This document shows, in pieces, positions 5,777 to 55,883 of a stretch of 64,000 nt of DNA. The notes below the pieces were generated by a model that was not told the DNA's origin, did not search any database, and saw only the letters and a list, made by a program, of their open reading frames with translations. The DNA lies in assembly GCA_016860985.1 (NCBI GenBank), contig BOKM01000001.1, forward strand, positions 463,462-527,461. The letters run 5' to 3'. Position 1 is the stretch's first letter. Each line of letters begins with the position of its first letter. The position numbers and the translations under genes were made by a program. Origin of the DNA: Patescibacteria group bacterium. Its GTDB lineage: Bacteria > Patescibacteriota > Dojkabacteria > GCA-002793355.

Positions 5777-5827
5777 GTATCAGTGTAACAAATAATCAAA
5801 AACCTGCAAATTTGTTACAATTGCAAA

Positions 5828-6559
5828 GTGGCTAAACCTCTTATCACAATAGTTACCTGCACAAAGAATCAAGGGAAATATTTACCAGAGTTATTACAAT
5901 CGCTTACCACACAGCAAAAAAAGAACTTTGAGCATGTGATCATCGACGGTTTCAGCTCAGACGATACTGTTTCCCTACTAAATAAGTATAAAAAAGAAAA
6001 CGAAACTGCTTTTCCGATACATATCCATCAATTTCCTCCGTTAGGTATTGCTGATGCTATGAACAAAGGTATTCTTCACTCACACGGCGACTGGATAATC
6101 ATAATTCACGGAGATGACTATCTTATCAGCGAGAAAGCGACTGATGTAATAGAAAAAGCAGTAAAAATGAACACTCAATCAGAATGGATTGTTGCTAATA
6201 CGACTCGAAAGTTGTGGGGAATTCGATACACGACCAAAACATTTTTACTAAAGCCAATCTTATTTCGATTGCTCCCCGTCTACAACTTTTTAAACCATCA
6301 GAACATGATTATGAGGCGTGATTTATTCCTAAAATATGGTGGATTTCGAACCGATTTCAAAATCAATATGGATTATGAGTACTACCTACGCCTTTTGCAC
6401 CACGGAGTGATGCCTGCTGCTTTTGACGGGGAGTTTTCAGTCTTTCGAAGGCATGAATCGAGTGCCTCAGCAATGCGAGAAAATCAAGCAACCGTTGTTG
6501 AAGAATTCATAAAACTAAAGCGACAGTACAAGAATACAGTGAAATGGGGCAAAAGATGA
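5828..6559 (+). CDS. family 2 glycosyltransferase
   Basis: 'LITIVTCTKNQGKYLPELLQSL' plus 'HVIIDGFSSDDT' (DxD-type) are typical GT-A/GT2 features. Starts with GTG, preceded by TACAAT 6 nt upstream. Confidence 0.75.
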   Translation: MAKPLITIVTCTKNQGKYLPELLQSLTTQQKKNFEHVIIDGFSSDDTVSLLNKYKKENETAFPIHIHQFPPLGIADAMNKGILHSHGDWIIIIHGDDYLISEKATDVIEKAVKMNTQSEWIVANTTRKLWGIRYTTKTFLLKPILFRLLPVYNFLNHQNMIMRRDLFLKYGGFRTDFKINMDYEYYLRLLHHGVMPAAFDGEFSVFRRHESSASAMRENQATVVEEFIKLKRQYKNTVKWGKR

Positions 6560-9232: not shown

Positions 9233-10291
9233 TCAAGCCAAGCTTGGAAGTGGAATCAAATGTTTAAGTAATTTCCCTTTCTTAAATACCAATTTTCCGC
9301 TAGATGATACTACTCGATCAAAGAATGTGAATAACTCTTGAGGGAGTTTGACAGTACAGAATGGGTTTTCAATTAACACGTACTCCCTATTCCACGGTGA
9401 ATCAGGACCGATATCTTTGAAAAACAATACGGCACTAACTCGTGTTCCCTTTGACGCTGTAAAAATTGGGTCCAAACCAAAAGTCCTCTCACCAAACAGA
9501 GTTATCTTTGCTTCCATTGGCAATTCAACAGCCCAGTCCTCTAGATTAACTGCAATTATAAATGGAGCTTCGATGCTGTATGCGGAAGCTTTTGTCCGAA
9601 TGGTCTTCTGAAATCGAATAAACGGATCATTTCCTATCCAATTCGTTTCTACACCTGTCGAACAAACGAACCTTGTTCTTTTTGGTTCCGTCTTCTTTAG
9701 AAACTTGATTTCAATTTTCCAATCGTCTTGGGTGTACATTATCTGTTCGCTTCCGACATCCATAGCAGTAATACATTGTTTTCTCACTTCAGACACTTTA
9801 ATTGGTGTACTCCCTTTGTTTTGTGTTTCTAACCATCCAAAGAACAGAGTATCTTGCAATGTATTGTTGAGGTAATCAACAAGCTCGTTGAATAATTTAT
9901 CGGATAATTTTTCAGTAGAACTATCGACTGACGAGGTTGCGCACTCGATGTACACCTTTGATTTTCCTCTTGTTGCACAGAAATCAGGAGTTTGACCACT
10001 ACCGACAGAGGGTTCAACTTCAACTGCAAAACCTGTACTAATCAATAATTCTCGAACAAAGAGCTCGAAAAATGCTGGCTTCATATGAGTACGAAATTGA
10101 GAAATGAACCTCTTCTTCAAAGGTTCCGGGTATGTTGAAAACCATTTTTCGAATAGTAGTCTTCTTTGCTCAACCTCAACTCTCGATGATTGATTGTAAA
10201 ACGTGAAGAGATCTTCGGTATACTTCATTGGCCCAGTACGGATTCTAGGAATTTGATCAAAAAGGGTTGGCATATTGGACCAATTGTTCAA
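9233..10291 (-). CDS. hypothetical protein
   Basis: 352-aa ORF with no confident family. A short 'DDWKIEIK' segment is the only nuclease-like hint. The annotated start is 3 nt from the tmRNA 3' end, so the true start may be a downstream Met. Confidence 0.45.
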   Translation of the reverse strand: MNNWSNMPTLFDQIPRIRTGPMKYTEDLFTFYNQSSRVEVEQRRLLFEKWFSTYPEPLKKRFISQFRTHMKPAFFELFVRELLISTGFAVEVEPSVGSGQTPDFCATRGKSKVYIECATSSVDSSTEKLSDKLFNELVDYLNNTLQDTLFFGWLETQNKGSTPIKVSEVRKQCITAMDVGSEQIMYTQDDWKIEIKFLKKTEPKRTRFVCSTGVETNWIGNDPFIRFQKTIRTKASAYSIEAPFIIAVNLEDWAVELPMEAKITLFGERTFGLDPIFTASKGTRVSAVLFFKDIGPDSPWNREYVLIENPFCTVKLPQELFTFFDRVVSSSGKLVFKKGKLLKHLIPLPSLA

Positions 10292-10293
10292 AG

Positions 10294-10699
10294 TGGAGGT
10301 GAGGGGAATCGAACCCCTGTTCAGCTATTCTAAAAAAGAAGTTTCTCCCAAAACAGTCTGAGTTGTTTACGAGATTATGCCTAAAAATCAGACAAAAAAG
10401 CATAACCCGCCCACACAAATACGATTCTGGCAACTCAGCGGAACTAGCGGCCAGTCGGCATGAACTTTCTTACTCCTGGCTCTCCGCTTGTCATGCGAAG
10501 GAGGAAAAGCCAGTTACGTCGAAATTAGACGTATGAGAATTGCATTGCTGGAGAAACAGCTTTGAGGGCTGAGTTCACGAACGATGCGATTTTCTCAGAA
10601 AGGGTTTGTTTGGCACTTTATGTGCTTTGATAGTTTAACGGGATATCAGCCCGTTTGGCTACTTCTTTCAACGAACAACCGTCTAAACCGATCACCCCC
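10294..10699 (-). ncRNA. ssrA: transfer-messenger RNA (tmRNA, SsrA)
   Basis: Minus-strand RNA starts 5'-GGGGGUGAUCGGUUUAGACGG (cf. E. coli GGGGCUGAUUCUGGAUUCGACGG). It ends ...CAGGGGUUCGAUUCCCCUCACCUCCA, with a T-arm GGTTCGATTCCCC. The 7-bp acceptor stem GGGGGUG/CACCUCC carries the G3:U70 alanine identity pair. Length is ~406 nt. The 3' CCA is not encoded. The tag reading frame was not resolved. Confidence 0.8.
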
Positions 10700-16997: not shown

Positions 16998-19900
16998 TTA
17001 CTCCGCAATATCTAACTCTTTAAGCATCTTACCCGTCCAACTCCTTGGATTTCGTCTAATGTCACCTATTGTGCCTGTCGCTACGATTTCTCCACCACCA
17101 GTTCCACCTTCGGGACCTAAATCGATGAGATAGTCAGCTTCCGCGATAAAGTCGAGGTTATGTTCAATTACAAAAACACTATTCCCTGTCGCAACTAAGG
17201 TTTTTAATACTGCTACCAGTTTCTCAATATCTGCAAAATGCAGACCAGTAGTTGGTTCATCAAGGATGTAGATTGTTTTACCTGTCGAACGCCTTCCAAG
17301 TTCTGCTGATAACTTCACTCTTTGTGCCTCTCCACCCGACAACATTGGGGCTGGCTCTCCAAGCTTCAAATAGCCAAGCCCTACTTGCTGAAGCATTTCG
17401 AATTTTTCTCGAATCATCGAGATTTCTGAAAAGAAAGCAGCAGCTTCATCTACCGACATATCCAACACATCTGCAATATTCTTTCCTTTGTACAACACTT
17501 CTAGAACCTCAGACACATATCGCTTACCGTGACAAACATCACAGTCAATATACACATCGGGCATAAACTGCATTTCGATCTTTATCTTACCCTCTCCTTT
17601 ACAGGCTTCACAACGACCACCTTTCAGGTTGAAACTAAAGCGACTTGCGGTGTAACCTCGCACTTTGGAATCCTTTGTTTGAGCAAAAAGTTCTCGAATA
17701 TCGTCGAAAACCTTTGTGTATGTTGCAGGATTACTTCTTGGTGTTCTACCAATTGGCGACTGATCAATGTAAAGGAGCTTGTCAATAACATCCGATACGT
17801 ATAGGTTTCTGTATTCTGTGTCGGGGCTATCTGTTCTCAGACCAAGAGTCTTTTTGATAGCAGGCAACAAGGTTTCCACCACAAGGGAGCTCTTTCCTGA
17901 ACCTGAAACACCAGTTATTGCAACAAATTTTCCGAGCGGAAACTTAACCGTTACATCTTTTAGATTGTGTGTTTTTGCCCCAGAAAGCTCTAAATACCGG
18001 TCAGCTACGCGCATTCGGGCATGTGACGCAAGAGCATCGTTTAATTTTTTGTTCTTACCAAGCCCTAACTTCACGAGTTTTTCGACTTCTTTTGCAATTG
18101 TTTTCTTACCAGCTAAGTACGGGCCAGTTACAGATTCGGGGTTGTCCATAATCTCTTTTGGCGTACCCATAGCAACGATTTTTCCTCCACGATCTCCTGC
18201 ACCCTTACCAAAATCAAGTACAAGATCTGCATTCATCATGGTATCTCTGTCGTGCTCAACAACGATCACAGTATTTCCCAAATCACGAAGATGCTTTAAT
18301 GTCGCGATTAATCGATGTTGATCTCGTGCATGCAGCCCAATCGAAGGTTCATCTAGTACGTAAATTACCCCCGAAAGGCCTGTTCCAATCTGACTCGCAA
18401 GGCGAATTCGCTGTGCTTCTCCACCAGAAAGCGTAGTTGCAGTTCTACTCACGGTTAAGTATTCAAGCCCCACGTCTAATAGAAATTGCGAACGAAGGAG
18501 GATTTCTCGAATTACTGGTTGTGCAATTGTCTGAGCTTTTGAATCAAATTCTTTAATAAATCCCTTGGTCTCATCTGTAAACTCTTTGATGGTTAAATCG
18601 CAAAGCTGGGAGATATTTAGATTATTAATGGTTACCGCAAGCACAATATCTTTAAGCCTTGTTCCTTTACAAGTTGGGCACGTAACCGTACTCATAAACT
18701 TCTCAATTTCGGTTCGAATAAAATCTGAATTTGTTTCTTTATACCTGCGCTCTAAGTTCGGAATTATCCCCTCGTATTTGGCATGAAGCGAGCGTTCTGT
18801 TCCGTCTTGGCTCGAAAAGTACGTTACTTTGTACTTTTGATCTCCCGTTCCGTAAAGAATCAGGTGTAATTTACCCTCAGTAAGCATACTCACTGGCGTA
18901 TGAATCGAAATAGTGTGTGCATCACAGACTAGTTCAAGCAACCTTCTAAAGTAAGAATCTCTCTCAAGCATTTTTGCGTACGGCATGATGCCACCTGCAA
19001 GTATCGAACGCTTTCCGTCGATAATTCCCTCTGTTGATATCTTCTTTATAACGCCAAGTCCATCACATTCAGGGCAGGCACCGTGTGGGGAATTAAAGGA
19101 AAAATCTCTAGGTTCAAGATCAGGAACAGAAATACCGCATTTTTTACAACTTTTGGTAACGCTATAATCGTGGGAAAGTACTGAGGTTGGACGAGCAGGT
19201 ATTCCCGGTTGTGGATCTCTTATTTCTAAAATTCGAACAAAGGTTGGTTGAATTTTAAGTGCGGCCTCAACTGATTGAAATATTCTTGAGCGCATTTCTT
19301 TTAGCGCTTCTTCTGAATCAAAGAGCGTTTTGCTCACACTTAAGGTGTCGACTACTACTTCTATTTCGTGTTGCTTGTACTTGTCGAGCTGTGGCAACAT
19401 TAATTTCAAGTCAATATATTCACCATCAACTCGAACAACATTCCACCCCTGTTTTCGCAAGTTCATAAATACCTGCTCATATTCACCTTTTCTTCCAGAA
19501 ATTGGAACTGCGGTAATCATAAAGCGGAACCCAAATTTTTGAGTATTTTTATCGTTTTCGTATTCGCGTTTTATCTTCTGCAATAAACCATCTACTACCT
19601 GGTCAATTGTTTGGGAGGTAAGTACCGCCCCACATTGTGGACAATGCGCAACACCGACTCTCGCGTACAACAATCGTAGGTAATCATAGATCTCGGTGAT
19701 TGTACCAACAGTCGAACGAGGATTATGTGATACCGTTTTCTGGTCAATAGCTATAGAGGGTGACAATCCTTCAATTTTATCGACATCTGGCTTACGTAGT
19801 TCACCCAAGAATTGCCTTGCATATGCAGATAAGCTCTCCACATATTTTCGCTGGCCTTCGGCATAAATGGTATCCATTGCAAGTGAGCTCTTGCCAGACC

Positions 19901-20000
19901 CCGACAAGCCAGTAAAAACAATCAACTTGTTTTTTGGGATATCGACGTCAATATTCTTGAGATTGTTCTCGCGCGCACCGCGAATCGAGAGAAAGTCCAT
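16998..20000 (-). CDS. uvrA: excinuclease ABC subunit A
   Basis: Two ABC ATPase modules ('GLSGSGKSSLAMDTIYAEGQRKYVESLSAYARQFLG' and 'GVSGSGKSSLV'), zinc-finger Cys pairs and a length of 1000 aa. Confidence 0.95.
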   Translation of the reverse strand: MDFLSIRGARENNLKNIDVDIPKNKLIVFTGLSGSGKSSLAMDTIYAEGQRKYVESLSAYARQFLGELRKPDVDKIEGLSPSIAIDQKTVSHNPRSTVGTITEIYDYLRLLYARVGVAHCPQCGAVLTSQTIDQVVDGLLQKIKREYENDKNTQKFGFRFMITAVPISGRKGEYEQVFMNLRKQGWNVVRVDGEYIDLKLMLPQLDKYKQHEIEVVVDTLSVSKTLFDSEEALKEMRSRIFQSVEAALKIQPTFVRILEIRDPQPGIPARPTSVLSHDYSVTKSCKKCGISVPDLEPRDFSFNSPHGACPECDGLGVIKKISTEGIIDGKRSILAGGIMPYAKMLERDSYFRRLLELVCDAHTISIHTPVSMLTEGKLHLILYGTGDQKYKVTYFSSQDGTERSLHAKYEGIIPNLERRYKETNSDFIRTEIEKFMSTVTCPTCKGTRLKDIVLAVTINNLNISQLCDLTIKEFTDETKGFIKEFDSKAQTIAQPVIREILLRSQFLLDVGLEYLTVSRTATTLSGGEAQRIRLASQIGTGLSGVIYVLDEPSIGLHARDQHRLIATLKHLRDLGNTVIVVEHDRDTMMNADLVLDFGKGAGDRGGKIVAMGTPKEIMDNPESVTGPYLAGKKTIAKEVEKLVKLGLGKNKKLNDALASHARMRVADRYLELSGAKTHNLKDVTVKFPLGKFVAITGVSGSGKSSLVVETLLPAIKKTLGLRTDSPDTEYRNLYVSDVIDKLLYIDQSPIGRTPRSNPATYTKVFDDIRELFAQTKDSKVRGYTASRFSFNLKGGRCEACKGEGKIKIEMQFMPDVYIDCDVCHGKRYVSEVLEVLYKGKNIADVLDMSVDEAAAFFSEISMIREKFEMLQQVGLGYLKLGEPAPMLSGGEAQRVKLSAELGRRSTGKTIYILDEPTTGLHFADIEKLVAVLKTLVATGNSVFVIEHNLDFIAEADYLIDLGPEGGTGGGEIVATGTIGDIRRNPRSWTGKMLKELDIAE

Positions 20001-31202: not shown

Positions 31203-33257
31203 CTAGCTTTTAAGATTTTTTATAAGTTCACGTAGTTCAATTGCTTTTTCAAAATTCAGGGACATCGCTTCTTTCTTCATCTCTTTTGTTAACCAATCAA
31301 TTGTGGATTTTTGCTCTTTTTTGGGCATAGTGCGGTACGAAGCAGTCATAATTTCGATATCTTTCCCAAGCATTGTATGGATCTTCTTCTCGCGTGCTAC
31401 ATCTGTTTCTTCTTCAATTTTTGGCAATATACGTTCTCTGATTGCTTTGTGGATAGATTGTGGAGTAATTCCCATCTTCTGGTTATACTCTAACTGTGCC
31501 TTTCGGCGTCTTTCTACTTCAAAGAGCGCTTCTTGCATACTGTGAGTTGTATGGTTCGCGTACAAAATGACTCGTCCTTCTACGTGCCTTGCTGCTCTCC
31601 CCATTGTTTGGATTAAACTTGTTCTGGAGCGCAAAAAACCTTCTTTATCCGCATCAAGAATTGCAACCAACGAAACTTCCGGCAAGTCCAAGCCTTCACG
31701 CAACAGGTTAATTCCTACCAAAACATCGTAATTACCTGCTCTTAGGTCAGAAAGAATATCAGTTCTGTCCATCGTATCGATATCAGAGTGCAAGTAGGTC
31801 ACCCTTACTCCACCTTCTTTTAGATACTCAGACAAGTCTTCTGCCATCCGTTTTGTCATTGTGGTAACCAGTACGCGTTCTTTTTTGGCAATTGTCGTTT
31901 TAATTTCAGTTACCAAATCCTGGATCTGATTTTCGGCAGGACGTACCTCAACAACCGGATCAACGATGCCTGTAGGTCTAATGAGTTGCTCTGCAACGTT
32001 CTCTTTTCCTGCTTTTTCCATTTCATATTCTTCCGGTGTTGCCGAGAGAAACACTGTATACCCCATTCGGTCTTCGAATTCAGGAAACCGCAAGGGTCTG
32101 TTCTCTTTTGCCGAAGGAAGGCGAAAGCCATAGTCTATAAGATTTTGCTTTCTTGCTTGGTCACCATTGTACATGCCTCTGATCTGAGGAACAGTCATAT
32201 GTGATTCATCAATAACCAGCAAGTAGTCTTTTGGAAAATAGTCCATTAGTGAATATGGCGGGTCACCAAGCTGTCGGCCATCAAAGTAATAGGAGTAGTT
32301 TTCAATGCCTTTGCAATATCCAATTTCGCGAATCATTTCTAAATCATATTGAACCTTTTGCTTTAATCGGTGAGCTTCTATCAATTTTCCTTGAGATTCG
32401 AACTCTTTAACTCGTTTTGCCGTATCTTGTTGTATCCTTTCTATTGCTTGCTGCTGAAGTGCCTCGTCCATTACATAGTGCTTCGCGGGGTACAAGACTA
32501 CTTTTTTAATCGCTTCGCCTTCTGTTTCTAGCAACATGTCGATATAGTACGAATAGTCTGTGATAACTGCTCCATCTATTGGGTTAAATAGCTCTAAAGA
32601 AGAAACCTCGTCACCCAAGTATGTGACTCGAACACCAATATCTGCATATGAAATGTAAATATCAACAGAATTACCCCTAATTCGAAAGGTTCCTCTTTTA
32701 AAGTCGATATCGTTTCGTTCATAATACAAGTTGACTAACTGTGCTTGCAGCTTTTGTGGACCATTTCCTTTTCCAACTTCAACCAGTGCCATCGCATTTT
32801 TATACGTTTTTGGTGAACCAAGGTTGTAAATTGCCGATACTGACGCGATAACAATTGCATCCTCTCTTGTCATTAATGCAGTAGTTGCAGCCAGTCGGAG
32901 TTTATCAATTTCTTCATTAATATCCGAGTCTTTTTCAATATACAAGTCACGCTGAGGAATATACGCCTCTGGTTGATAGTAGTCGTAGTAACTAACGAAG
33001 TAATGAACAGCATTTTTAGGAAAAAACTCTTTAAACTCTTGGTACAACTGCGCCGCGAGTGTCTTGTTGTGAGAAATAATCAGGGTCGGTTTTTGAACAC
33101 GCTGAATAAGATTTGCCACTGTAAAGGTTTTTCCGCTACCAGTCACTCCGAGTAATACTTGTGAATGTTGACCGTTACCGACTCCTGCAACTAGTTTTTC
33201 TATTGCCGTAGGCTGGTCACCCATCGGACTATATTGTGCAGAGAGTTGGAACTTCAT
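31203..33257 (-). CDS. uvrB: excinuclease ABC subunit B
   Basis: 'PMGDQPTAIEKLVAGVGNGQHSQVLLGVTGSGKTFTVANLIQ', helicase motifs and the C-terminal UVR domain 'NFEKAIELRELIKNLK'. Confidence 0.95.
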   Translation of the reverse strand: MKFQLSAQYSPMGDQPTAIEKLVAGVGNGQHSQVLLGVTGSGKTFTVANLIQRVQKPTLIISHNKTLAAQLYQEFKEFFPKNAVHYFVSYYDYYQPEAYIPQRDLYIEKDSDINEEIDKLRLAATTALMTREDAIVIASVSAIYNLGSPKTYKNAMALVEVGKGNGPQKLQAQLVNLYYERNDIDFKRGTFRIRGNSVDIYISYADIGVRVTYLGDEVSSLELFNPIDGAVITDYSYYIDMLLETEGEAIKKVVLYPAKHYVMDEALQQQAIERIQQDTAKRVKEFESQGKLIEAHRLKQKVQYDLEMIREIGYCKGIENYSYYFDGRQLGDPPYSLMDYFPKDYLLVIDESHMTVPQIRGMYNGDQARKQNLIDYGFRLPSAKENRPLRFPEFEDRMGYTVFLSATPEEYEMEKAGKENVAEQLIRPTGIVDPVVEVRPAENQIQDLVTEIKTTIAKKERVLVTTMTKRMAEDLSEYLKEGGVRVTYLHSDIDTMDRTDILSDLRAGNYDVLVGINLLREGLDLPEVSLVAILDADKEGFLRSRTSLIQTMGRAARHVEGRVILYANHTTHSMQEALFEVERRRKAQLEYNQKMGITPQSIHKAIRERILPKIEEETDVAREKKIHTMLGKDIEIMTASYRTMPKKEQKSTIDWLTKEMKKEAMSLNFEKAIELRELIKNLKS

Positions 33258-38066: not shown

Positions 38067-39866
38067 CTATACTGCAAAGTTTCCAACTTCTGCCTCTGTT
38101 ACTTCTGCAAGATCTTCTCCTTTCATGGTAATTGAACATGTCTGCATACCTGCGTTAAACGACACCTGTTCGAGTTGCGCAATAGCGCTATCCATGTACA
38201 CTTTCATGCCCAAAAGATTGCCAAAAGGAGGGACTCCCCCAACTTTAATACCATAGGTCGCGAGAATGTTCTCTGGCTTCTCAAACTCTGCTTTTTCTCC
38301 AATGGCGGCAGTTACTGCTTCAAAGGATATTTTTTTATCGCCTGGAATAACTACCATAACCGGAGTATTGGTCTTTTTTCCAGAAAGAATAAGCGCCTTT
38401 GCTCCATTAGAGAGAGATGTTCCTCGAAGCGCTGCGGCCTCTTCACTTGTTCGCACAGCTTCGTGTTCAGAAAATTCGTATGCAACTGCACGGCTATCAA
38501 GTATTTTTTTAATTTTTGCCACAACTTCCTTATCAGAACCAAGCTTTTCCTTGATTCTATTTGCACCTGCGATTCTCTTGAGATCAGAAGGGAATAAGGT
38601 TGCCTCTCGGATATTTTGCAAGTTGAACAACTTCATGGTTAATCGCTCAAGTCCAAAAGAAAATCCTGCCTCTGAAGGCATTCCGTATTTAAAGGCTTGG
38701 AAATAGTGCTCGTAATACGCTTCAGACAAGCCTTGCTCTTTAAATCTTTCGAAAAGCTTTTCGTATTCGTGGATACGATGGGTACCTGAAAGCATTTCAA
38801 GACCTCTAAACTCAAGGTCAAAGCTAAGAGATTCCGAAGCTTCTTCTGGGTTATCCCATGTATAAAAGTTTTTGTTGCTTTTAAAGTTTACAACCCACAG
38901 AAAATCTGAACCTTTTTCCTCTAATGCCCACTTGCTAATCTCACGCTCGTCTTCCGGATCGAGGTCTAACTCCTCTCGTTCTGCTGACTTTCCGATTCTT
39001 CTTTCTATAATCTCCAAAGCTTCTCGAACTTTTATTTTCGGAAATCGACCATTTGGTAATTTGGGAAGCTCAACCCCATACAAGGCGAACACATCTTTTG
39101 AGGTCTCCACTACACCATCAACAATATGTCGAATAACATTTTCAGCAATCTGCATGGCCTCGTCGTAATTATCAATAAAGCCCATCTCCGCATCCATTTG
39201 CGTGAGTTCCATTATGTGGCGGGTAGTATTATGCTTCTCTGCTCGAAAAACGGGACCGACACAGAAAGCGCGTTCAAAGGCTGTAACCATAATTTGCTTA
39301 TAAACCTGTGGCGACTGCGCCAAATATGCTTTTCCTTCAAAGTAGTTCACTTCAAAAACACTTGCACCACTTTCAGACGGAGCACTCATAATTACCGGTG
39401 ACTTAAATTCGGTAAAACCTTGAGAGCGTAGAGATTCCGCAAACTTTTGTAAAATAACCGCTTGTACTTTAAAAATTGCTTGTTTTTTAAGATTTCTTAG
39501 CACCAAAGGTCTGTAATCCAACTCTGTGTCGATATTGACATCAATTGATTTTTTGTTGTACGAAACCGGTGGAACTTCCTTAATTGGGACCTTTATTTCG
39601 ACCGTAGGGTTAACTACTTCAACACCAATATCTGTTGAGTCAGTTTTTTTTACCGTTCCCACAACACGAACAACACTTCCGGGTTGCAACGACGCTAATT
39701 CTTTTAACGTATCTTTATTATCAACAACTACCTGAACTAAGCCACCTCGATCACGAACAATCAAGAAACCGAGTTTGCCTAACTCACGAAAGTTATGAAG
39801 CCACCCATCAAGGCGTACTTCTTTGCTCTCATATCCAGAGAGCTCTGTTGAAATAATACGTTCCAT
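38067..39866 (-). CDS. aspS: aspartyl-tRNA synthetase (archaeal type) fused to a C-terminal YbaK/ProX-type aminoacyl-tRNA deacylase domain
   Basis: Residues ~1-440 form a class II AspRS: N-terminal OB fold, 'AQSPQVYKQIMV' (QSPQ), motif 2 'GPVFRAEKHNTTRH' and motif 3 'GFSFGLERLTMKL'. Residues ~450-599 are collinear with E. coli YbaK: 'AYEFSEHE' (cf. IHTYEHD), 'GIKVGGVPPFG' (cf. GYLVGGISPLG) and 'VSFNAGMQTCSITMKGEDLAEV' (cf. [22 protein letters not shown]). A TATAAT lies 5 nt upstream of the ATG. Confidence 0.85.
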   Translation of the reverse strand: MERIISTELSGYESKEVRLDGWLHNFRELGKLGFLIVRDRGGLVQVVVDNKDTLKELASLQPGSVVRVVGTVKKTDSTDIGVEVVNPTVEIKVPIKEVPPVSYNKKSIDVNIDTELDYRPLVLRNLKKQAIFKVQAVILQKFAESLRSQGFTEFKSPVIMSAPSESGASVFEVNYFEGKAYLAQSPQVYKQIMVTAFERAFCVGPVFRAEKHNTTRHIMELTQMDAEMGFIDNYDEAMQIAENVIRHIVDGVVETSKDVFALYGVELPKLPNGRFPKIKVREALEIIERRIGKSAEREELDLDPEDEREISKWALEEKGSDFLWVVNFKSNKNFYTWDNPEEASESLSFDLEFRGLEMLSGTHRIHEYEKLFERFKEQGLSEAYYEHYFQAFKYGMPSEAGFSFGLERLTMKLFNLQNIREATLFPSDLKRIAGANRIKEKLGSDKEVVAKIKKILDSRAVAYEFSEHEAVRTSEEAAALRGTSLSNGAKALILSGKKTNTPVMVVIPGDKKISFEAVTAAIGEKAEFEKPENILATYGIKVGGVPPFGNLLGMKVYMDSAIAQLEQVSFNAGMQTCSITMKGEDLAEVTEAEVGNFAV

Positions 39867-49575: not shown

Positions 49576-50004
49576 TTATGCAATAAATTTCTTCATCACC
49601 ACGAGTGCAGCGTACACAATCTGTTCATTGTCACCATAAACCTGTAATCCTTCATGCACAACTTCGTTACGCATATGGTGAAATTGCTTAAGAACTCTGA
49701 ATTGGTCGTATGTGAGAGTGTTTCTTTCAAGGGCGGAACGCAATTGTTGCTTCACACTTGAATCTTTTAGTCCGTAATTCCACAGAATTTGAGAAAGCAC
49801 TCGGTCTGCAGAGATGGTTAACTTATGAAGTCGAAGACGTTTTTTCTCTAAATCCTTTTCGGTATGAGCAATAAAATACTCGTCGATCAAACCTTTTACT
49901 GCTACTTCAAGGTACTTTGTATTGGGGTTAAGCCTTTTGGGAATAACGACCGCTGCAAGATAAATAAACAAAAGTAACAACGCAGCAAGAATATAGTAGA
50001 ACAT
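49576..50004 (-). CDS. membrane-anchored HEPN-domain protein (HepT/DUF86-like)
   Basis: N-terminal TM helix (YYILAALLLLFIYLAAVVI). The C-terminal 'HHMRNEVVHEGLQVY' matches the HepT R-N-x-x-x-H-x-Y motif. Confidence 0.5.
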   Translation of the reverse strand: MFYYILAALLLLFIYLAAVVIPKRLNPNTKYLEVAVKGLIDEYFIAHTEKDLEKKRLRLHKLTISADRVLSQILWNYGLKDSSVKQQLRSALERNTLTYDQFRVLKQFHHMRNEVVHEGLQVYGDNEQIVYAALVVMKKFIA

Positions 50005-50852: not shown

Positions 50853-52673
50853 CTAGATTCCTTTTAACTCATCGACGGTTGTTGCCTGTTCCGCCTTCTT
50901 TTCCCTGAATTTTTTAAACCTTGGAAAGCGAAGTGCATAACCTGAAGAATGAAGGGGGCTTTTGGTTATTTCGTCTGCTTCGACTTCTACTACAAGCGAG
51001 GGCAATAAATAAACATCTGGAGTGAGCGACTTAGGAATAACTACATTATCCAGTTTTCTATCGGTCTTTACCTCGTCACAGGCTGCTTTAATGATTTTCC
51101 ATTGCTCGTGTGTAACCCCCGTGCCTATTTTTGTTACGGTTAGGTACTCATCTGTCTCTCGGTTATAAACAGCAGCAAGCAGTGCACCGATACCAAATTG
51201 GGCGAGTTTTCCTTCTCCGCGATAATAACCTACCAAAACGATATCAACCGTATCTGCGAGTTCTTTTTTCATCGCTTTTTTATATTTTAACCAATCAAAG
51301 TTACGCGTTCCTGGAGTATAAATAGATGACGTATCCTTAAAAATGACTCCCTCTAAACCCTCTGCCACATATTCAAGGAAAAGTTTTTCCGCCTCAGCAA
51401 CATCTTTTGGATAATGAATTGGAGTTTTAACAATTGTACGTTGAACCTCCTGATTTTCGTCGAGAAAAGTTAAGAGTTCTTTTCGAACTGAAAGTGATTT
51501 GTCCATCAAATTTTCATTATTTACCAAAAGAATATCAAAAGAGAAGACTTTAACAGGAACTTCGTTTGCTGCACCTTCTACCCCGTGTTTCCGCTTGCGA
51601 GTCATTGTTTGTTGGAAAGGAAGATACTCCTGAACGATATCATTGTAACCGATGACTTCACCATCGAGCACAATGGATTCAACAGAGACACCGTGCTTTT
51701 TTTCATACTGCAGTGGAAGCTTCTTTGCTGCTTCTACGACTTCGGGGAACATTTCGGTCATATTTTCGAGATTGCGGGAAAAAAGCATAACTGAGTAATC
51801 CTCTTTTTCATTCTGTTCTGGTTGAGAAAAAAGGCTAAGATTCGCTTCTTTTGACTTATCTTCGTGTGAAAAGTATGGTTGCCAAACTCTTTCTGCATAG
51901 ACGTTTTCAAGAACCTTTTCTTTGAATACGTGGAGTTGTATTCGCAAACCGTCATATTTTGGCTCTTCAATTGGCTCTGGAATTCTTTTGTAGATAGACT
52001 CGATTGAATCTTCACGTTCAACCAGCTTTGCTGAGACAGGAATTCCTGGTGAAAATACTGATCGTTCCGGGGCTGCTTCGCCATACTTTAGAGAGAGATA
52101 CACTGTATGCCCAATATCTGAACAATTCGCAAACAGCTTTTTTAGCTCGTCATTTTTTGTCCCCTGTAATGCGCCGAGTGCCTCAAGTATGGTTCTTTCG
52201 CTTGCTCCAAGCCGAAGTTTGCTGTTCACAATTCGCAGTGTATACTTGCCCGCTAGAGGTGAGCATCTTTTTAGCAGATTAATTAGTAATTCTTGTTTCT
52301 TTGCCTGTGAGCCTGTCCCTTTGGTTTTTGCAACATCCCACAAGAGAGAGTAGTAGTCGAGTAGGGTAAGGTCAGTCTCTTGTTTTGGTGCGTAGGCCTC
52401 CCATACTGAACCGATATCACCATATGTGGTTAAATCTTGCACAACATCTTTACCCAAGAGTGTTTCGACAACAGTTCGCAACGTTTTATCAGACAATTGA
52501 AACTCAACCGCAATAAATTCAGGGACAATTCTTCCTATTATCAAATATGCCGTAATTGCACCTTCTTCAGGGGTTGCCTGACGGAAATAATCAGTTAAAA
52601 GGGCCTGCATTTCGAGTCTTTTTGGTGTTTTCTCAATTGCCGAAAATAATTCCATTACTGTTGTCAGTTGCAT
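50853..52673 (-). CDS. ATP-dependent DNA ligase (archaeal/eukaryal LigB-type)
   Basis: Adenylation motif I 'EPKYDGLRIQLHV' (KxDG), downstream OB-domain motifs and a length of ~606 aa. Start chosen at an internal Met. Confidence 0.85.
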   Translation of the reverse strand: MQLTTVMELFSAIEKTPKRLEMQALLTDYFRQATPEEGAITAYLIIGRIVPEFIAVEFQLSDKTLRTVVETLLGKDVVQDLTTYGDIGSVWEAYAPKQETDLTLLDYYSLLWDVAKTKGTGSQAKKQELLINLLKRCSPLAGKYTLRIVNSKLRLGASERTILEALGALQGTKNDELKKLFANCSDIGHTVYLSLKYGEAAPERSVFSPGIPVSAKLVEREDSIESIYKRIPEPIEEPKYDGLRIQLHVFKEKVLENVYAERVWQPYFSHEDKSKEANLSLFSQPEQNEKEDYSVMLFSRNLENMTEMFPEVVEAAKKLPLQYEKKHGVSVESIVLDGEVIGYNDIVQEYLPFQQTMTRKRKHGVEGAANEVPVKVFSFDILLVNNENLMDKSLSVRKELLTFLDENQEVQRTIVKTPIHYPKDVAEAEKLFLEYVAEGLEGVIFKDTSSIYTPGTRNFDWLKYKKAMKKELADTVDIVLVGYYRGEGKLAQFGIGALLAAVYNRETDEYLTVTKIGTGVTHEQWKIIKAACDEVKTDRKLDNVVIPKSLTPDVYLLPSLVVEVEADEITKSPLHSSGYALRFPRFKKFREKKAEQATTVDELKGI

Positions 52674-52749
52674 ACAGGATTGTACCACTAGCAGCCGAAA
52701 TTGCCGTAGTATTTTACTTACACACTGCCACGTTATATAATTACTCAGT

Positions 52750-52946
52750 ACGCATTGACCCAGCAATCACTGGTGAGCGTCAGGAAGAAATGCACATTAG
52801 CATTGTAGAACCTGTCGGCGACCTCCGAACCAACTGGTTAAGCCATTTAGGCTAAGGGATACAAAAACGTATCTGAACGAGGGTGGTACCGTGAGCTAAA
52901 TCACTCACCCCTCTATAGGGATTTGCATTAATTTACTATAGAGGCC
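52750..52946 (+). promoter_or_regulatory. T-box leader (translational type) upstream of ileS
   Basis: Conserved T-box sequence 'AACGAGGGTGGTACCGTGAG' at ~52876-52895 (consensus AGGGUGGNACCGCG with the UGGN bulge). Antisequestrator arms are GAGGG/CCCTC and GTGAG/CTCAC. A mutually exclusive 9-bp helix CCTCTATAG (52909-52918) / CTATAGAGG (52935-52943) sequesters the SD 'AGAGG', 7 nt before the ATG at 52947. A candidate AUC specifier lies in a CAAUCA loop at ~52764-52769. Confidence 0.55.
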
Positions 52947-55883
52947 ATGGCACACAACGAATTTACACTCCCGAATGTCCGCAATTTTTACACTGACGTC
53001 GAACAACCTATTCTATCGTTTTGGAAAGAGAACAAAATCTTCGAAAAATCAGTAGATCAGCGCAGTGACAAGGATCGATTTGTATTCTACGACGGTCCTC
53101 CCTTTGTTACTGGTTTACCCCATTATGGGCACTTGCTTGCGAGCGTACTCAAAGACATCGTCCCTCGTTACCAAACAATGAAAGGCAAGAAAGTCGAGAG
53201 ACTCTGGGGTTGGGATTGTCACGGCATTCCAATTGAAGAGATGGTCGAAAGAAAATACAAAACAAAGAACCGAAGAGAAATCGAATCACGGGTTGGCATC
53301 AAAGAGTTTATAGAAGCCTGTGCGTCATATGTCACCGATGTTTCGGGAGAATGGGAGTGGTATATCGACAGAATCGCGCGCTGGGTCGATATGAAAAAAC
53401 CATACAGAACAATGGACCTTTCCTACATGGAAACAGTGATGTGGGTGTTTAAGCAATTCTACGAAAAAGGGTTAGTCTATAAAGGAAAACGCGTTTCTTT
53501 GTACTGCACCCGCTGTGGTACGCCTCTCTCAAACTTTGAAATCGCTATGGACAACTCGTACCGAGACCTTGAAGATCCTTCAGTATTTGTGAAATTCCCC
53601 GTCAAAGATGAAAAGAATACCTACATACTCGCATGGACAACAACACCATGGACTCTTCCGGCAAACAGTGCGTTGGTAGTTAATCAAGAGGCAGATTATG
53701 TAAAAGTAAAATCCGGCACCGATTCTATGTACCTTGCAAAAGCTCTCGTAGAAAAAGTCTTTAAAGATTTAGAATACACGGTAGAAGACGAAGTAAAAGG
53801 AGCAGCATTGATTGGGCTACATTACGAACCATTATTCAACTACTTTACTGCAGGGGAGCATGATTATCAGGTTTATCACGCAGATTTTGTCAGCATGGAA
53901 GAAGGTACAGGAATAATCCACATGGCTCCTGGATTTGGTGAGGACGACACTGCGCTCGGAAAGCAAATCGGGTTATCCATGCACGAAACAATCGACGACG
54001 AAGGAAGGCTTATACCCGAAGTTACTGATTATGCAGGCAAGTACTTTAAAGAAGCCGATCCATTTATCTCCGAAGACTTAACAAAGCGAGGTCTTATGCT
54101 AAAAGCGGAGCGAATCGTTCACAGTTATCCTATCTGTCACCGATGCAAAACACCTCTTGTTTATAAAGCACAGGACTCTTGGTATGTGAATATCCAGCAA
54201 ATTAAGGACCAACTCTACAAAAACAACGAAAATATCAACTGGATTCCAGAACATATCAAACACGGAAGATTTGAAGATGCGATTAAAACCTTCCCAGATT
54301 GGGGTATTTCAAGAACTCGTTATTGGGCAACTCCGATGCCAATTTGGGAATGTGACTCCTGTGACCACCAGGAAGTGTTAGGCTCAGTAGCAGAAATTGA
54401 AGAGCGATCAGGCAAAAAAGTTACAGACCTTCATCGTCCATACATAGATGAGCATACGTACGCTTGTAAAAAGTGTGAGAAAGGAACAATGAAGCGTGTC
54501 GCAGAGGTTGTTGATAGCTGGTTGGAATCAGCCTCCATGCCGTTTGCGCAATTCCACTATCCCTTTGAAAACAAAGAAAAGTTTGAAGCCAACTTCCCCG
54601 GTGATTTTATTACCGAATACGTGGGGCAAACGAGAGCTTGGTTTAACGTGATGCACGTGGTTTCAACTATACTTTTCGGTACAAATGCCTTCAACAATGT
54701 AATCTGCACAGGCGTTATCAAAGGAACCGATGGCCAAAAAATGAGTAAAAGCCTTGGCAACTACCCAGACCCTCGAGGTGTTATCGAAAAATACGGTGGC
54801 GACGCATTCAGACTCTATATTGCAGGAAGCGTATTACCATTAGGTGAGGACTTGAACGTTTCTGAAGAATCAATATCTGCCCCCGGAAAAGAGATTCTCA
54901 TGCCACTAATGAATACATACAAGTACTTTGCGTTATACGCCAATCAACATACCTTTGCTTTTGACCAAAATGCAAAATCGGAGCATGTACTCGATAGGTG
55001 GATTCTTGCACGTGTTAATTCTGTTGTTAGAACAATAGATTCAATGATTGCCGGATATACACTTCCAAAGGCAATTGCAGAGATTAAGCCCCTTGTAGAC
55101 GACATTTCCACTTGGTACATCCGAAGATCCCGAGATCGTTTTGTTGAGGGTGATAACAATGCATTGCAAACGTTATATCAAGTACTTCTTCTTGTGGTTA
55201 CCGCAATAGCACCAATCTCACCGTTTATAGCAGAGTATCTTTACCAAGAGTTAAAACGTGCGTTACCTACAGACCTTCAACAGGAATCAGTGCACCTACT
55301 CCTTTTCCCGTCACTTGCAGAGCAAACTGCAGAAGAACAATCAGTCCTAGCAACAATGGAACTTGCACGAAAGGCTGCATCGCTTGGGCAAAGTATTCGA
55401 GTAGAAAAAGCAATTGCACTCAAACAACCGCTTAGCCAAATGTTAGTTAATACAAAGGAGAAGCTCACAGCAGAATACCTAGACCTTTTATCAGAAGAGC
55501 TTAATGTTCAGGAGACACTCGCCGTGACCGAATTAACAGAAAAAGAGTTTTTGGCGGTTAAGAAAGATCAAGGAATAGAAGTCGGCTTAAATCTCGAAAT
55601 TACACCAGAACTTGCAGAAAAAGGGTTACTTCGCGAAGTGACAAGAGCGATCCAAGCCTCAAGAAAGAATGCTTCTCTCCAAATCGGGCAACATGCAAAG
55701 GTGCGAATTTTCACAGAAAGTACCGCAATCAAGGAACTTGTTGCAAAATACGGCACAGAGCTAAAGCAGGGAACACTCCTCGAAAGCATCGATACCGTTC
55801 AGCAACCACTTGGTGAAAACGCATTTACAGCAGCTGTAGGGCCACAGAAAGAGCAATTATCCATTGAAGTCACGCCACTTTAG
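52947..55883 (+). CDS. ileS: isoleucyl-tRNA synthetase, type 2 (archaeal/eukaryal-like)
   Basis: 'FYDGPPFVTGLPHYGHLLAS' (HIGH), 'KMSKSLGN', a CP1 editing region and a length of 978 aa without a bacterial C-terminal Zn domain. Confidence 0.95.
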   Translation: MAHNEFTLPNVRNFYTDVEQPILSFWKENKIFEKSVDQRSDKDRFVFYDGPPFVTGLPHYGHLLASVLKDIVPRYQTMKGKKVERLWGWDCHGIPIEEMVERKYKTKNRREIESRVGIKEFIEACASYVTDVSGEWEWYIDRIARWVDMKKPYRTMDLSYMETVMWVFKQFYEKGLVYKGKRVSLYCTRCGTPLSNFEIAMDNSYRDLEDPSVFVKFPVKDEKNTYILAWTTTPWTLPANSALVVNQEADYVKVKSGTDSMYLAKALVEKVFKDLEYTVEDEVKGAALIGLHYEPLFNYFTAGEHDYQVYHADFVSMEEGTGIIHMAPGFGEDDTALGKQIGLSMHETIDDEGRLIPEVTDYAGKYFKEADPFISEDLTKRGLMLKAERIVHSYPICHRCKTPLVYKAQDSWYVNIQQIKDQLYKNNENINWIPEHIKHGRFEDAIKTFPDWGISRTRYWATPMPIWECDSCDHQEVLGSVAEIEERSGKKVTDLHRPYIDEHTYACKKCEKGTMKRVAEVVDSWLESASMPFAQFHYPFENKEKFEANFPGDFITEYVGQTRAWFNVMHVVSTILFGTNAFNNVICTGVIKGTDGQKMSKSLGNYPDPRGVIEKYGGDAFRLYIAGSVLPLGEDLNVSEESISAPGKEILMPLMNTYKYFALYANQHTFAFDQNAKSEHVLDRWILARVNSVVRTIDSMIAGYTLPKAIAEIKPLVDDISTWYIRRSRDRFVEGDNNALQTLYQVLLLVVTAIAPISPFIAEYLYQELKRALPTDLQQESVHLLLFPSLAEQTAEEQSVLATMELARKAASLGQSIRVEKAIALKQPLSQMLVNTKEKLTAEYLDLLSEELNVQETLAVTELTEKEFLAVKKDQGIEVGLNLEITPELAEKGLLREVTRAIQASRKNASLQIGQHAKVRIFTESTAIKELVAKYGTELKQGTLLESIDTVQQPLGENAFTAAVGPQKEQLSIEVTPL

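What the first reader, a model, noticed from the sequence alone, without database searches (positions are those of the whole stretch)
52750..52946. Translational (SD-sequestering) T-box riboswitch on ileS in a CPR-like genome
The canonical T-box sequence GGGUGGUACCG is present. Two mutually exclusive helices share the CCCTC segment. One is the antisequestrator (GAGGG...GTGAG/CTCAC...CCCTC). The other is a 9-bp hairpin that occludes the AGAGG Shine-Dalgarno, 7 nt from the ATG. This is the reduced, translational T-box architecture described for actinobacterial ileS rather than a terminator-based one. Finding it here suggests tRNA-sensing control in this lineage. Most other genes in this window appear leaderless and SD-less, so ileS stands out.
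Basis: partly seen in the sequence, partly recalled or inferred. Interest (0 to 1): 0.5.

Follow-up and report, generated by a model that had tools for sequence, protein, structure and literature searches.

The report
Isoleucine T-box riboswitch on CPR ileS
The roughly 200-base leader in front of the isoleucyl-tRNA synthetase gene of this ultrasmall (CPR/Patescibacteria) bacterium is a genuine tRNA-sensing T-box riboswitch that most likely switches translation on and off by hiding the start-codon region, and no paper in the searched library reports T-boxes in this group.

Summary
Window 52746-52915 matches Rfam T-box (37 bits, E 8e-7; below the 93-bit gathering score because distal Stem I is absent). 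A covariance model built only from other CPR ileS leaders finds it as the sole hit in 64 kb (71 bits, E 2e-16).

All modules are present: K-turn, 4-bp Stem I with terminal loop CAAUCA (AUC plus A), Stem II S-turn, IIA/B pseudoknot, Stem III, and A1/UGGUACC/A2. An 8-9 bp hairpin shares CCUC with A1' and ends 2 nt before the ileS AUG.

Five further distinct leaders from close relatives (74-96% IleRS identity) keep the leader and the U-less hairpin. The ON fold covaries: 12 compensatory pairs, including the pseudoknot. The hairpin arms are invariant.

About 70 more distant CPR ileS leaders belong to the same family; 62 of the 63 examined (all but the window) have U-run terminators.

The "Shine-Dalgarno" label is not supported. 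GAGG is 2 nt from the AUG, becomes GAGA in relatives, and the genome is leaderless and SD-less.

Best reading: an Ile T-box that controls translation by occluding the start region. It is a new member of a known class in a lineage with no T-box report in the searched literature.

The parts
52713..52741 (+). Putative ileS promoter: -35 TTTACT (52713-18), 17-nt spacer, -10 TATAAT (52736-41). The predicted transcription start is about 52747-49, giving a leader of about 200 nt.
   Evidence: 10 of 12 consensus matches. A TATAAT about 10 nt before the K-turn is conserved in L170, L162, L164, L165 and L166. The start site is inferred, not measured.
52752..52778 (+). Stem I, ultrashort. K-turn (GC-AUU-GA on the 5' side, U-GA-GC on the 3' side), 4-bp helix CCAG 52760-63 / CUGG 52770-73, and terminal specifier loop CAAUCA 52764-69 with Ile codon AUC 52766-68 and the conserved purine A52769.
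   Evidence: Rfam alignment and R2 alignment. The Stem I helix covaries across 69 CPR leaders, with all 4 pairs showing double changes. The specifier loop of nearly every confidently aligned leader contains AUC followed by a purine.
52780..52815 (+). Stem II. Lower helix CAGG 52781-84 / CCUG 52811-14. S-turn strands AAGAA 52785-89 and GUAGAA 52805-10. Upper helix AUGC 52790-93 / GCAU 52800-03.
   Evidence: GAA and UAGA are invariant in the 17-sequence alignment. The lower helix has 5 of 5 pairs compensatory in the family and 3 of 4 in the clade.
52816..52839 (+). Stem IIA/B pseudoknot. IIA is CGG 52816-18 / CCG 52825-27. IIB is the loop GACC 52820-23 pairing with GGUU 52836-39 after an 8-nt linker.
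   Evidence: In the clade, 3 of 4 IIB pairs have changes on both sides (GACC/GGUU, UACC/GGUA, GUCU/AGAC, GCCU/AGGC) and 91.7% of cells are paired. In the wider family, 36 of 66 leaders have a helix of at least 4 bp at the canonical offset, against about 29% for shuffled loops.
52841..52853 (+). Clade-specific linker hairpin AGCC / GGCU between the pseudoknot and Stem III.
   Evidence: 100% of cells paired, and 2 of 4 pairs compensatory, across 6 sequences. It is absent from most other CPR leaders.
52854..52878 (+). Stem III with flanking purines: AAGGG, then helix GGAUAC 52857-62 / GUAUCU 52869-74, then GAAC. This fits the RRRxG-Stem III-AA motif.
   Evidence: 97% paired, 2 compensatory pairs. 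The motif definition is from PMC7583486.
52879..52913 (+). Antisequestrator, the core of the discriminator. A1 is GAGGG 52879-83 / CCCUC 52909-13. The T-box bulge is UGGUACC 52884-90. A2 is GUGAG 52891-95 / CUCAC 52904-08.
   Evidence: In the family, A1 has 5 of 6 and A2 5 of 5 pairs compensatory. The isolated fold is -11.8 kcal/mol.
52910..52944 (+). Sequestrator hairpin: 5' arm CCUCUAUAG 52910-18 and 3' arm CUAUAGAGG 52936-44. It shares CCUC with A1', is followed by no U-run, and ends 2 nt before the AUG.
   Evidence: -12.7 kcal/mol; the unpaired probability of 52936-43 is about 0. Eight of 9 pairs are present in all 6 clade sequences while the loop varies in sequence and length, but there is no compensatory change.
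52947..55883 (+). ileS coding sequence (978 aa). ATG 52947 is the first start codon after the upstream in-frame stop.

Best explanation
The leader 52748-52946 is an isoleucine-specific T-box riboswitch with an ultrashort Stem I. It controls synthesis of IleRS at the level of translation initiation.

How it works:
1. The mRNA starts a few bases before the K-turn.
2. Stem I presents AUC-A in its terminal loop to the GAU anticodon of tRNA-Ile. The Stem II S-turn, positioned by the IIA/B pseudoknot, clamps that codon-anticodon duplex.
3. If the bound tRNA is uncharged, its 3' ACCA pairs with UGGU of the T-box bulge and stabilises Stem III plus A1/A2, the antisequestrator.
4. That holds CCUC 52910-13 in A1 and leaves the 33 nt before the AUG (67% A+U) single-stranded, so ribosomes can initiate.
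5. With charged tRNA or no tRNA, CCUC pairs instead into the 8-9 bp hairpin 52910-44. This buries positions -11 to -3 immediately 5' of the AUG and blocks initiation.

Shown here: the RNA family, its fold (by covariation), the specifier, the two mutually exclusive helices, and their conservation.

Inferred: tRNA binding, the direction of the switch, and that the output is translational. The occluded element is the start region as a whole, not a Shine-Dalgarno.
For: T-box identity:
- RF00230 hit, E 8e-7.
- Window-free family model R2: 71.3 bits, E 2e-16, the only hit in the window.
- Family fold on 69 leaders: 95.3% of cells paired against 41-45% when slid, and 534 double-change cells against about 100.
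- Clade fold on 6 sequences: 95.5% paired against 31-42% slid, and 12 compensatory pairs including the pseudoknot.
- The specifier AUC plus a purine matches the downstream gene across the confidently aligned leaders.

Translational output:
- No U-run follows the hairpin in the window or in L170, L162, L163, L164, L165 and L166. The hairpin always ends 2-4 nt before the AUG, although the loop and spacer sequences vary.
- By contrast, 62 of the 63 CPR leaders examined (all but the window) carry a U-run or a near U-run.
- The two states are nearly isoenergetic (-13.0 against -11.8 kcal/mol). [quoted passage not shown] That matches the bistability described for translational T-boxes (PMC11297988; PMC7583486).
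- Without ligand the sequestrator state is favoured by about 5-6 kcal/mol, and 52936-43 are fully paired in the ensemble.
Against: - The sequestrator shows no compensatory change (7 of 9 pairs invariant), so it rests on conservation alone. L165 has a G.G mismatch in it.
- The AUG itself is predicted to be mostly unpaired.
- The genome shows no SD usage, so how a 30S or 70S ribosome starts on this long leader is unknown.
- Intrinsic terminators are not enriched in this genome, so the lack of a U-run is weaker evidence against attenuation than it would be in Firmicutes.
- No tRNA-Ile gene or 16S 3' end is in the window, so anticodon/discriminator matching and the presence of an anti-SD could not be checked.
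- There are no experimental data.
Confidence: 0.7

Rival explanations
1. It is a T-box, but the output is transcriptional. The hairpin 52910-44 would act as a non-canonical (U-less) terminator or pause site, or the OFF state would expose the RNA to factor-dependent termination, as in the rest of the CPR family.
For: Of the 63 CPR ileS T-box leaders examined, 62 are terminator-type. The window's hairpin occupies the same position as the canonical terminator of its nearest T-box relatives L133, L045, L134, L037 and L136. The genome shows no enrichment of canonical terminators, and its convergent genes overlap, so termination here may not need U-runs.
Against: No U-run is present in any of the clade's 6 distinct leader sequences. 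The stem is AU-rich and weak (-12.7 kcal/mol) compared with -21 to -32 for the terminators of most of the canonical relatives, including all of the closest subgroup. The conserved 2-4 nt distance to the AUG has no role in termination. Near-isoenergetic states do not suit a kinetic, irreversible switch.
Confidence: 0.15
2. It is exactly the first reader's model: a true SD-sequestering T-box in which AGAGG 52940-44 is a functional Shine-Dalgarno.
For: GAGG is present in the window and in L170 and is fully paired in the OFF state. This is the actinobacterial design (PMC7583486).
Against: There is only a 2-nt spacer to the AUG. The motif is GAGA in L162, L163, L164, L165 and L166. Only 1 of 36 genes has an SD-like motif at normal spacing, below background. 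The 3' arm must resemble GAGG in any case in order to compete with A1.
Confidence: 0.08
3. It is a decaying relic. A former terminator-type T-box would have lost its U-run and would no longer regulate, so ileS is expressed constitutively.
For: Relatives at 59-74% identity (L167, L168, L169, L002) have no T-box and have a leaderless ileS. The element has therefore been gained or lost within this group.
Against: The promoter, the K-turn, AUC-A, the S-turn, UGGUACC, A1/A2 and both hairpin arms are intact and conserved over a 74-100% IleRS identity range, with compensatory changes in 12 pairs. That is purifying selection on the fold. A constitutive OFF-favoured hairpin in front of an essential gene would be costly.
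Confidence: 0.04
4. It is a chance resemblance: not a T-box at all.
For: The score is below the Rfam gathering threshold (37 against 93 bits).
Against: An E-value of 2e-16 with a model that excludes the window, all modules in the right order, a specifier that matches the gene, and conservation with covariation in the relatives.
Confidence: 0.01

Closest known systems
Actinobacterial translational ileS T-box (Mycobacterium tuberculosis or M. smegmatis, Nocardia farcinica; Sherwood et al. 2015; structures 6UFG and 6UFM as cited in PMC7583486)
   Same: The same gene (ileS) and the same specifier logic (AUC plus a purine in the terminal loop of an ultrashort Stem I that lacks the elbow-binding distal motif). 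[quoted passage not shown] The alternative hairpin uses the A1' strand and reaches the ribosome-binding region. There is no terminator U-run, and the ON and OFF states are nearly isoenergetic.
   Different: It is found in CPR/Patescibacteria, not Actinobacteria. The occluded segment holds no conserved SD, and the host genome does not use SDs. The hairpin ends 2-4 nt from the AUG. The pseudoknot has an 8-nt linker, and an extra covarying hairpin precedes Stem III. The specifier loop has 6 nt. Direct sequence or model comparison with actinobacterial leaders could not be run here, so common descent is untested.
Canonical transcriptional T-box (Rfam RF00230; B. subtilis tyrS and glyQS type)
   Same: The K-turn, the specifier-anticodon and UGGN-NCCA logic, the T-box sequence, the antiterminator geometry, and a competing helix that uses the 3' strand of A1.
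   Different: About 70 nt of distal Stem I (the tRNA-elbow platform) are missing, so the score of 37 bits falls below the gathering score. The competing helix is weak, lacks a U-run and abuts the start codon.
CPR ileS T-box leaders found here (for example L045 Dojkabacteria, L037, L133-L136; L032 and L059 Saccharimonadales)
   Same: One RNA family: the window scores 71-85 bits against their model. All have an ultrashort Stem I with AUC-A, the S-turn, the F-box region, Stem III and UGGUACC. The window is 65-73% identical to the L133/L045/L134/L037 subgroup, which has the same canonical switch topology.
   Different: Outside the window's own clade, all the leaders examined end in a U-run or near-U-run terminator 10-40 nt or more upstream of an AUG. 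Most Saccharibacteria members use a terminator whose 3' arm pairs with the Stem III side instead of with A1'. These leaders are not described in any paper the library search found.

Membership tests
T-box riboswitch (RF00230) | Reaches Rfam's curated gathering score | tested here: not met
   37 bits against 93. The shortfall is explained by deletion of 74 model positions of distal Stem I. E 8e-7 locally.
T-box riboswitch (RF00230) | K-turn (GA motif) at the base of Stem I | tested here: met
   GC-AUU-GA on one strand and GA-GC on the other, aligned to the model's K-turn columns. The C-stem pair covaries (GC to AU) in the clade.
T-box riboswitch (RF00230) | A specifier codon that matches the regulated gene, followed by a purine | tested here: met
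   AUC 52766-68 plus A52769 upstream of ileS. AUC plus a purine is present in nearly every confidently aligned CPR leader and in all 6 clade sequences.
T-box riboswitch (RF00230) | The T-box sequence forming A1, a 7-nt UGGNACC bulge and A2 | tested here: met
   GAGGG / UGGUACC / GUGAG...CUCAC / CCCUC. A1 and A2 covary in the family, with 10 of 11 pairs compensatory.
T-box riboswitch (RF00230) | A mutually exclusive alternative helix that uses the 3' strand of the antiterminator | tested here: met
   CCUC 52910-13 is shared. The helix is conserved in 6 of 6 clade sequences but without covariation.
T-box riboswitch (RF00230) | Binds cognate uncharged tRNA, through anticodon GAU and 3' ACCA with A73 | not testable with these tools
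   There is no tRNA gene in the window. UGGU predicts A73, which is the usual discriminator base of bacterial tRNA-Ile (general knowledge). Binding needs experiment.
Translational ileS T-box, actinobacterial type | Ultrashort Stem I with the specifier in the terminal loop and no distal elbow-binding motif | tested here: met
   A 4-bp helix plus a 6-nt loop.
Translational ileS T-box, actinobacterial type | Stem II with a conserved S-turn | tested here: met
   GGAAGAA and GUAGAAC, with invariant GAA and UAGA. The flanking helices covary.
Translational ileS T-box, actinobacterial type | Stem IIA/B pseudoknot | tested here: met
   GACC 52820-23 / GGUU 52836-39. Three of 4 pairs are compensatory in the clade. 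The linker is 8 nt, against 4-6 in other CPR leaders.
Translational ileS T-box, actinobacterial type | The sequestrator masks a Shine-Dalgarno sequence | tested here: not met
   GAGG is 2 nt from the AUG, is GAGA in 4 of 6 clade sequences, and the genome lacks SD usage. The hairpin masks positions -11 to -3 instead.
Translational ileS T-box, actinobacterial type | No intrinsic terminator, with ON and OFF states close in energy | tested here: met
   No terminator-like site. The energies are -13.0 against -11.8 kcal/mol, whereas the terminator-type relatives differ by 16-24 in the closest subgroup.
Translational ileS T-box, actinobacterial type | Sequence or model-level homology to actinobacterial ileS leaders (for example TBDB's translational_ILE.cm) | not tested
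   No actinobacterial leader sequence or model was obtainable.
Translational ileS T-box, actinobacterial type | tRNA-dependent control of 30S binding or translation | not testable with these tools
   Needs toeprinting or reporter assays.

The most novel reading that the evidence does not exclude
This would be an SD-independent translational T-box. The lineage initiates mostly on leaderless mRNAs, has no detectable SD usage and shows no enrichment of intrinsic terminators. In it, a terminator-type CPR T-box would have been rebuilt into a hairpin that gates access to the start codon itself.

Together with the roughly 70 CPR relatives, this would show two further things. First, T-boxes are widespread in Patescibacteria. 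Second, an ultrashort Stem I is compatible with transcription attenuation, often through a terminator that competes with Stem III rather than with A1'. That runs against the current generalisation that short Stem I goes with translational control.
Probability: 0.4. Interest if true: 0.65.

Novelty: new member of a known kind. Interest (0 to 1): 0.5.

Why it matters
T-boxes are regarded as a feature of Firmicutes, Actinobacteria and a few neighbouring phyla, and translational ones as almost exclusive to Actinobacteria. Finding one in CPR bacteria gives this almost unstudied, mostly uncultivated radiation a concrete, testable regulatory RNA. CPR bacteria have tiny genomes and few known regulators. 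It also shows that tRNA-charging feedback on an aminoacyl-tRNA synthetase survives extreme genome reduction.

The window's clade is a natural experiment on how a T-box couples to translation where there is no Shine-Dalgarno. The wider CPR family challenges the proposed link between Stem I length and mode of regulation. A native ligand-responsive leader could also serve as a genetic tool, which a recent perspective on Patescibacteria calls for (PMC11665869).

Tried and rejected
- Rfam at gathering threshold on the whole window found only a tmRNA. The T-box appears only with permissive filters.
- The genome contigs and metagenome-contig scans with IleRS gave no relative above 64% identity. For a while this made the window look like the only U-less member. 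The large protein database plus contig look-ups then supplied relatives at 74-96%.
- An unconstrained search for the longest helix between the IIA loop and the downstream sequence did not discriminate from shuffles. Constraining the offset did, and the clade alignment settled the question.
- I considered a second, internal promoter: TACTAT 7 nt before the ATG, which would produce a leaderless ileS mRNA. I rejected it because the hexamer is GACTAT in L164 and AACTAG in L165 and matches TATAAT at only 4 of 6 positions.
- I briefly misread the 63-67% relatives as N-terminal NUDIX fusions, which would have moved L002's start codon. The ORF listing shows the 1135-aa ORF starts at L002:1501, so the extra domain is internal or C-terminal.
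- ORF 52556-52855(+) and the TTG-extended ligase ORF reaching 52766(-) overlap the leader. Both were rejected as artefacts. The gene call is 606 aa starting at 52673, with its own leaderless promoter TGGTACAAT-CCUGU-AUG.
- Attempts to obtain an actinobacterial ileS T-box sequence from papers or supplements failed.
- I did not search for tRNA-Ile or 16S outside the window.

Full report
**1. Observation.**
- GGGUGGUACCG lies at 52881-91.
- Helix A1 is GAGGG 52879-83 with CCCUC 52909-13. Helix A2 is GUGAG 52891-95 with CUCAC 52904-08. The 7-nt bulge between them is UGGUACC.
- A perfect 9-bp hairpin, CCUCUAUAG 52910-18 with CUAUAGAGG 52936-44, shares CCUC with A1'. It is followed by CC and the ATG at 52947.
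- The loop CAAUCA is exactly at 52764-69.
- The ORF is ileS (TIGR00392, 848 bits).
- ATG 52947 is the first start codon after the upstream in-frame stop.
- A good promoter (TTTACT-17-TATAAT, 52713-41) lies just upstream, and no terminator-like site is found.

**2. Is it a T-box?** Rfam's RF00230 does not reach its gathering score on the window. In a local search it aligns end to end over 52746-52915 at 37 bits, E 8e-7, with 74 positions of distal Stem I replaced by 4 nt.

I then collected ileS loci from reference genomes and metagenomes. Many Patescibacteria loci carry GGAUGGUACC about 100 nt upstream of ileS.
- An alignment of 17 leaders gave an RNAalifold consensus with Stem I, Stem II, A1 and A2. 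Of its 23 pairs, 19 are compensatory.
- A covariance model built from that alignment found the element on the ileS strand in 41 of 80 genome loci and 30 of 80 metagenome loci.
- On the 69-sequence alignment, 95.3% of pair cells are standard pairs, against 41-45% when the partners are slid by one column. There are 534 double-change cells against about 100.
- A second model built without the window scores the window at 71.3 bits, E 2.2e-16. This is the only significant hit in 64 kb on both strands.

The element is therefore a real member of a structured RNA family that is itself a T-box.

**3. Anatomy.** I compared the leader with the parts list in the review PMC7583486. The window has all of the following.
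- A K-turn (GC-AUU-GA on one strand, GA-GC on the other).
- A 4-bp Stem I capped by the specifier loop, with AUC followed by A.
- Stem II, with the S-turn strands AAGAA and GUAGAA.
- Stem IIA (CGG/CCG) and a IIB pseudoknot (GACC 52820-23 with GGUU 52836-39).
- An extra small hairpin at 52841-53.
- AAGGG-Stem III-GAAC.
- The A1/bulge/A2 discriminator.

The specifier loop of nearly every confidently aligned leader reads NNAUC plus a purine. UGGU predicts a tRNA with A73. That is the usual discriminator base of bacterial tRNA-Ile, a point of general knowledge that could not be tested because the window has no tRNA gene.

**4. The window's own clade.** The contig collections held nothing closer than 64% IleRS identity. 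The large protein database did hold closer relatives, at 96, 87, 87, 77, 75 and 74%, and I fetched their contigs.

Every relative with an intact upstream region (L170, L162, L163, L164, L165 and L166; L162 and L163 carry identical leaders, so these are five further distinct sequences) has the following.
- The same divergent DNA ligase, about 260-330 nt upstream of ileS.
- A TATAAT about 10 nt before the K-turn.
- An R2 hit of 59-71 bits (L162-L166; L170 was fetched afterwards and its leader aligns throughout).
- A U-less hairpin, CCUCUAUAG...CUAUAGAG, that ends 2-4 nt before the AUG.

On the alignment of the six distinct sequences (window plus five), the ON-state fold including the pseudoknot is 95.5% paired, against 31-42% when slid. 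It has 12 compensatory pairs: Stem II 3, IIB 3, linker hairpin 2, Stem III 2, and one each in the K-turn stem and A2. None of 500 shuffles reaches this.

For the sequestrator, 8 of 9 pairs are present in all six sequences, apart from one G.G in L165. Seven pairs never vary and none is compensatory. The loop between the arms differs in both sequence and length. The hairpin is therefore supported by conservation and position, not by covariation.

**5. Transcriptional or translational?** Among the 63 CPR leaders from the first two scans that have an aligned T-box bulge, every one except the window has a U-run or near U-run just after the switch helix. The window's nearest T-box relatives (65-73% identity: L133, L045, L134, L037, L136) have textbook terminators that use the A1' strand.

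[quoted passage not shown] In the window the two states are -13.0 and -11.8 kcal/mol. Near-equal energies are what the literature describes for bistable translational T-boxes.

Without ligand the hairpin state is favoured by about 5-6 kcal/mol, and bases 52936-43 are fully paired in the ensemble. A hairpin at a conserved 2-4 nt from the AUG, the lack of a U-run in the clade's six distinct leader sequences, and the bistability together favour control of initiation.

There is a caveat. This genome shows no enrichment of intrinsic terminators, and its convergent genes overlap. Absence of a U-run is therefore less telling here than in Firmicutes.

**6. The Shine-Dalgarno claim.**
- The 3' end of AGAGG is only 2 nt from the AUG.
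- The final G, and the C-G pair it makes, exists only in the window and L170. The other leaders read GAGA.
- Of 36 ATG-start genes in the window, 16 have a -10 box ending 4-9 nt upstream, so they are leaderless. The background over all ATG triplets is 3.9%.
- Only one of the 36 has an SD-like motif at 3-12 nt, against a 9.4% background.
- A GAGG-like 3' arm is also dictated by the need to mimic the A1 5' strand.

I conclude that the hairpin occludes the start region, not an SD. When the antisequestrator forms, it frees 33 nt of 67% A+U RNA in front of the AUG.

**7. Lineage.** The best 80 IleRS matches among species-representative genomes are nearly all labelled Patescibacteria, Saccharibacteria or other CPR groups. 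L002, a 659-kb contig of a Saccharibacteria-labelled MAG, and L082 share the ligase, ComF and TrmB neighbours with the window. The CPR assignment therefore holds at the genome level.

Within this group the T-box comes and goes. L002, L167, L168 and L169 (59-74% identity) have no T-box and have a TATAAT-like box 5-7 nt before the ileS ATG.

**8. Novelty.** Full-text searches that combined T-box or T box with Saccharibacteria, Patescibacteria, candidate phyla radiation or TM7 found no paper. The six papers that combine riboswitch with CPR do not mention T-boxes.

TBDB searched its translational ileS model only against Actinobacteria. Rfam's threshold would miss these short-Stem-I leaders.

The mechanism class is well known, so I rate the window element a new member of a known kind. 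Its lineage and SD-less context are unusual.

**9. Limits.**
- I have no tRNA-Ile gene, no 16S 3' end and no actinobacterial leader for direct comparison.
- The sequestrator shows no covariation.
- There are no experimental data.
- The model-guided alignments lean towards the model's own structure, so I relied on the slid-partner controls.

Noticed in passing
window, whole (for example 16998-20000(-), 29073(+), 31203-33257(-), 38067-39866(-), 49576-50004(-), 52673(-)): The genome is dominated by leaderless genes. Of 36 ATG-start genes, 16 have a box matching TATAAT at 5 of 6 or better that ends 4-9 nt before the ATG (background 3.9%). SD-like motifs are at or below background (1 of 36 against 9.4%). 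ileS is the exception, with a 200-nt leader.
   Followed up: yes
L010-L161 (69 loci, alignment A2), for example L032:1260-1430, L045:480-661: ileS T-box leaders are widespread in Patescibacteria: 41 of 80 genome loci and 30 of 80 metagenome loci. Essentially all confidently aligned members have an ultrashort Stem I, yet 62 of the 63 examined have U-run terminators. This runs against the published generalisation that transcriptional T-boxes need a long Stem I with the elbow-binding motif.
   Followed up: partly
L032:1380-1450, L059, L081, L023, L025 and about 40 others: In 46 of 61 CPR leaders, the 12 nt before the U-run pair best with the segment from -16 to -2 just 5' of A1, which is the 3' strand of Stem III. 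The terminator therefore encloses the whole antiterminator and competes with Stem III, not with A1'/A2'. Only 9, including the window, have the canonical topology. I know of no description of this switch geometry.
   Followed up: partly
L062:669-1112, L124:602-1138, L065:912-1493, L048:269-865, L021:1109-1459, L058:518-1474, L148:506-1183: In several Saccharibacteria loci the T-box is followed first by a small unrelated gene (NUDIX, GNAT acetyltransferase, CAP, cupin, DUF5655 or DUF4145) and only then by ileS. The 63-67% IleRS relatives (P0008-P0014, including L002, 1135 aa) carry a NUDIX domain fused within IleRS.
   Followed up: partly
L002:1480-1503, L167:1-41, L168:1470-1503, L169:1480-1503: The closest relatives without the T-box have a leaderless-type ileS (TATAAT-like box 5-7 nt before the ATG). 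The leader has therefore been gained or lost within a narrow clade, at 59-74% IleRS identity.
   Followed up: partly
window 1-64000: There are no tRNA genes in 64 kb (ARAGORN). Terminator-like sites are not enriched (17, 16 and 17 against 16-19 in shuffles). Convergent genes overlap or abut (for example 55883/55870, 30425/30422, 40765/40762), so there is little room for intrinsic terminators.
   Followed up: partly
window 10291-10699 (-): A standard one-piece tmRNA (RF00023, 92 bits, E 1.6e-34). It is the only Rfam family above its gathering score in the window.
   Followed up: no
window 5784-5819: A perfect 9-bp inverted repeat, TGTAACAAA...TTTGTTACA, in the 51-nt divergent gap between genes 4715-5776(-) and 5828-6559(+). 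It looks like an operator shared by two back-to-back leaderless promoters.
   Followed up: no
window 50853-52673 (-): An ATP-dependent DNA ligase (dnl1 superfamily, 606 aa) lies divergent from ileS. It has its own leaderless promoter signature, TGGTACAAT-CCTGT-ATG, and the arrangement is conserved in all clade members.
   Followed up: partly
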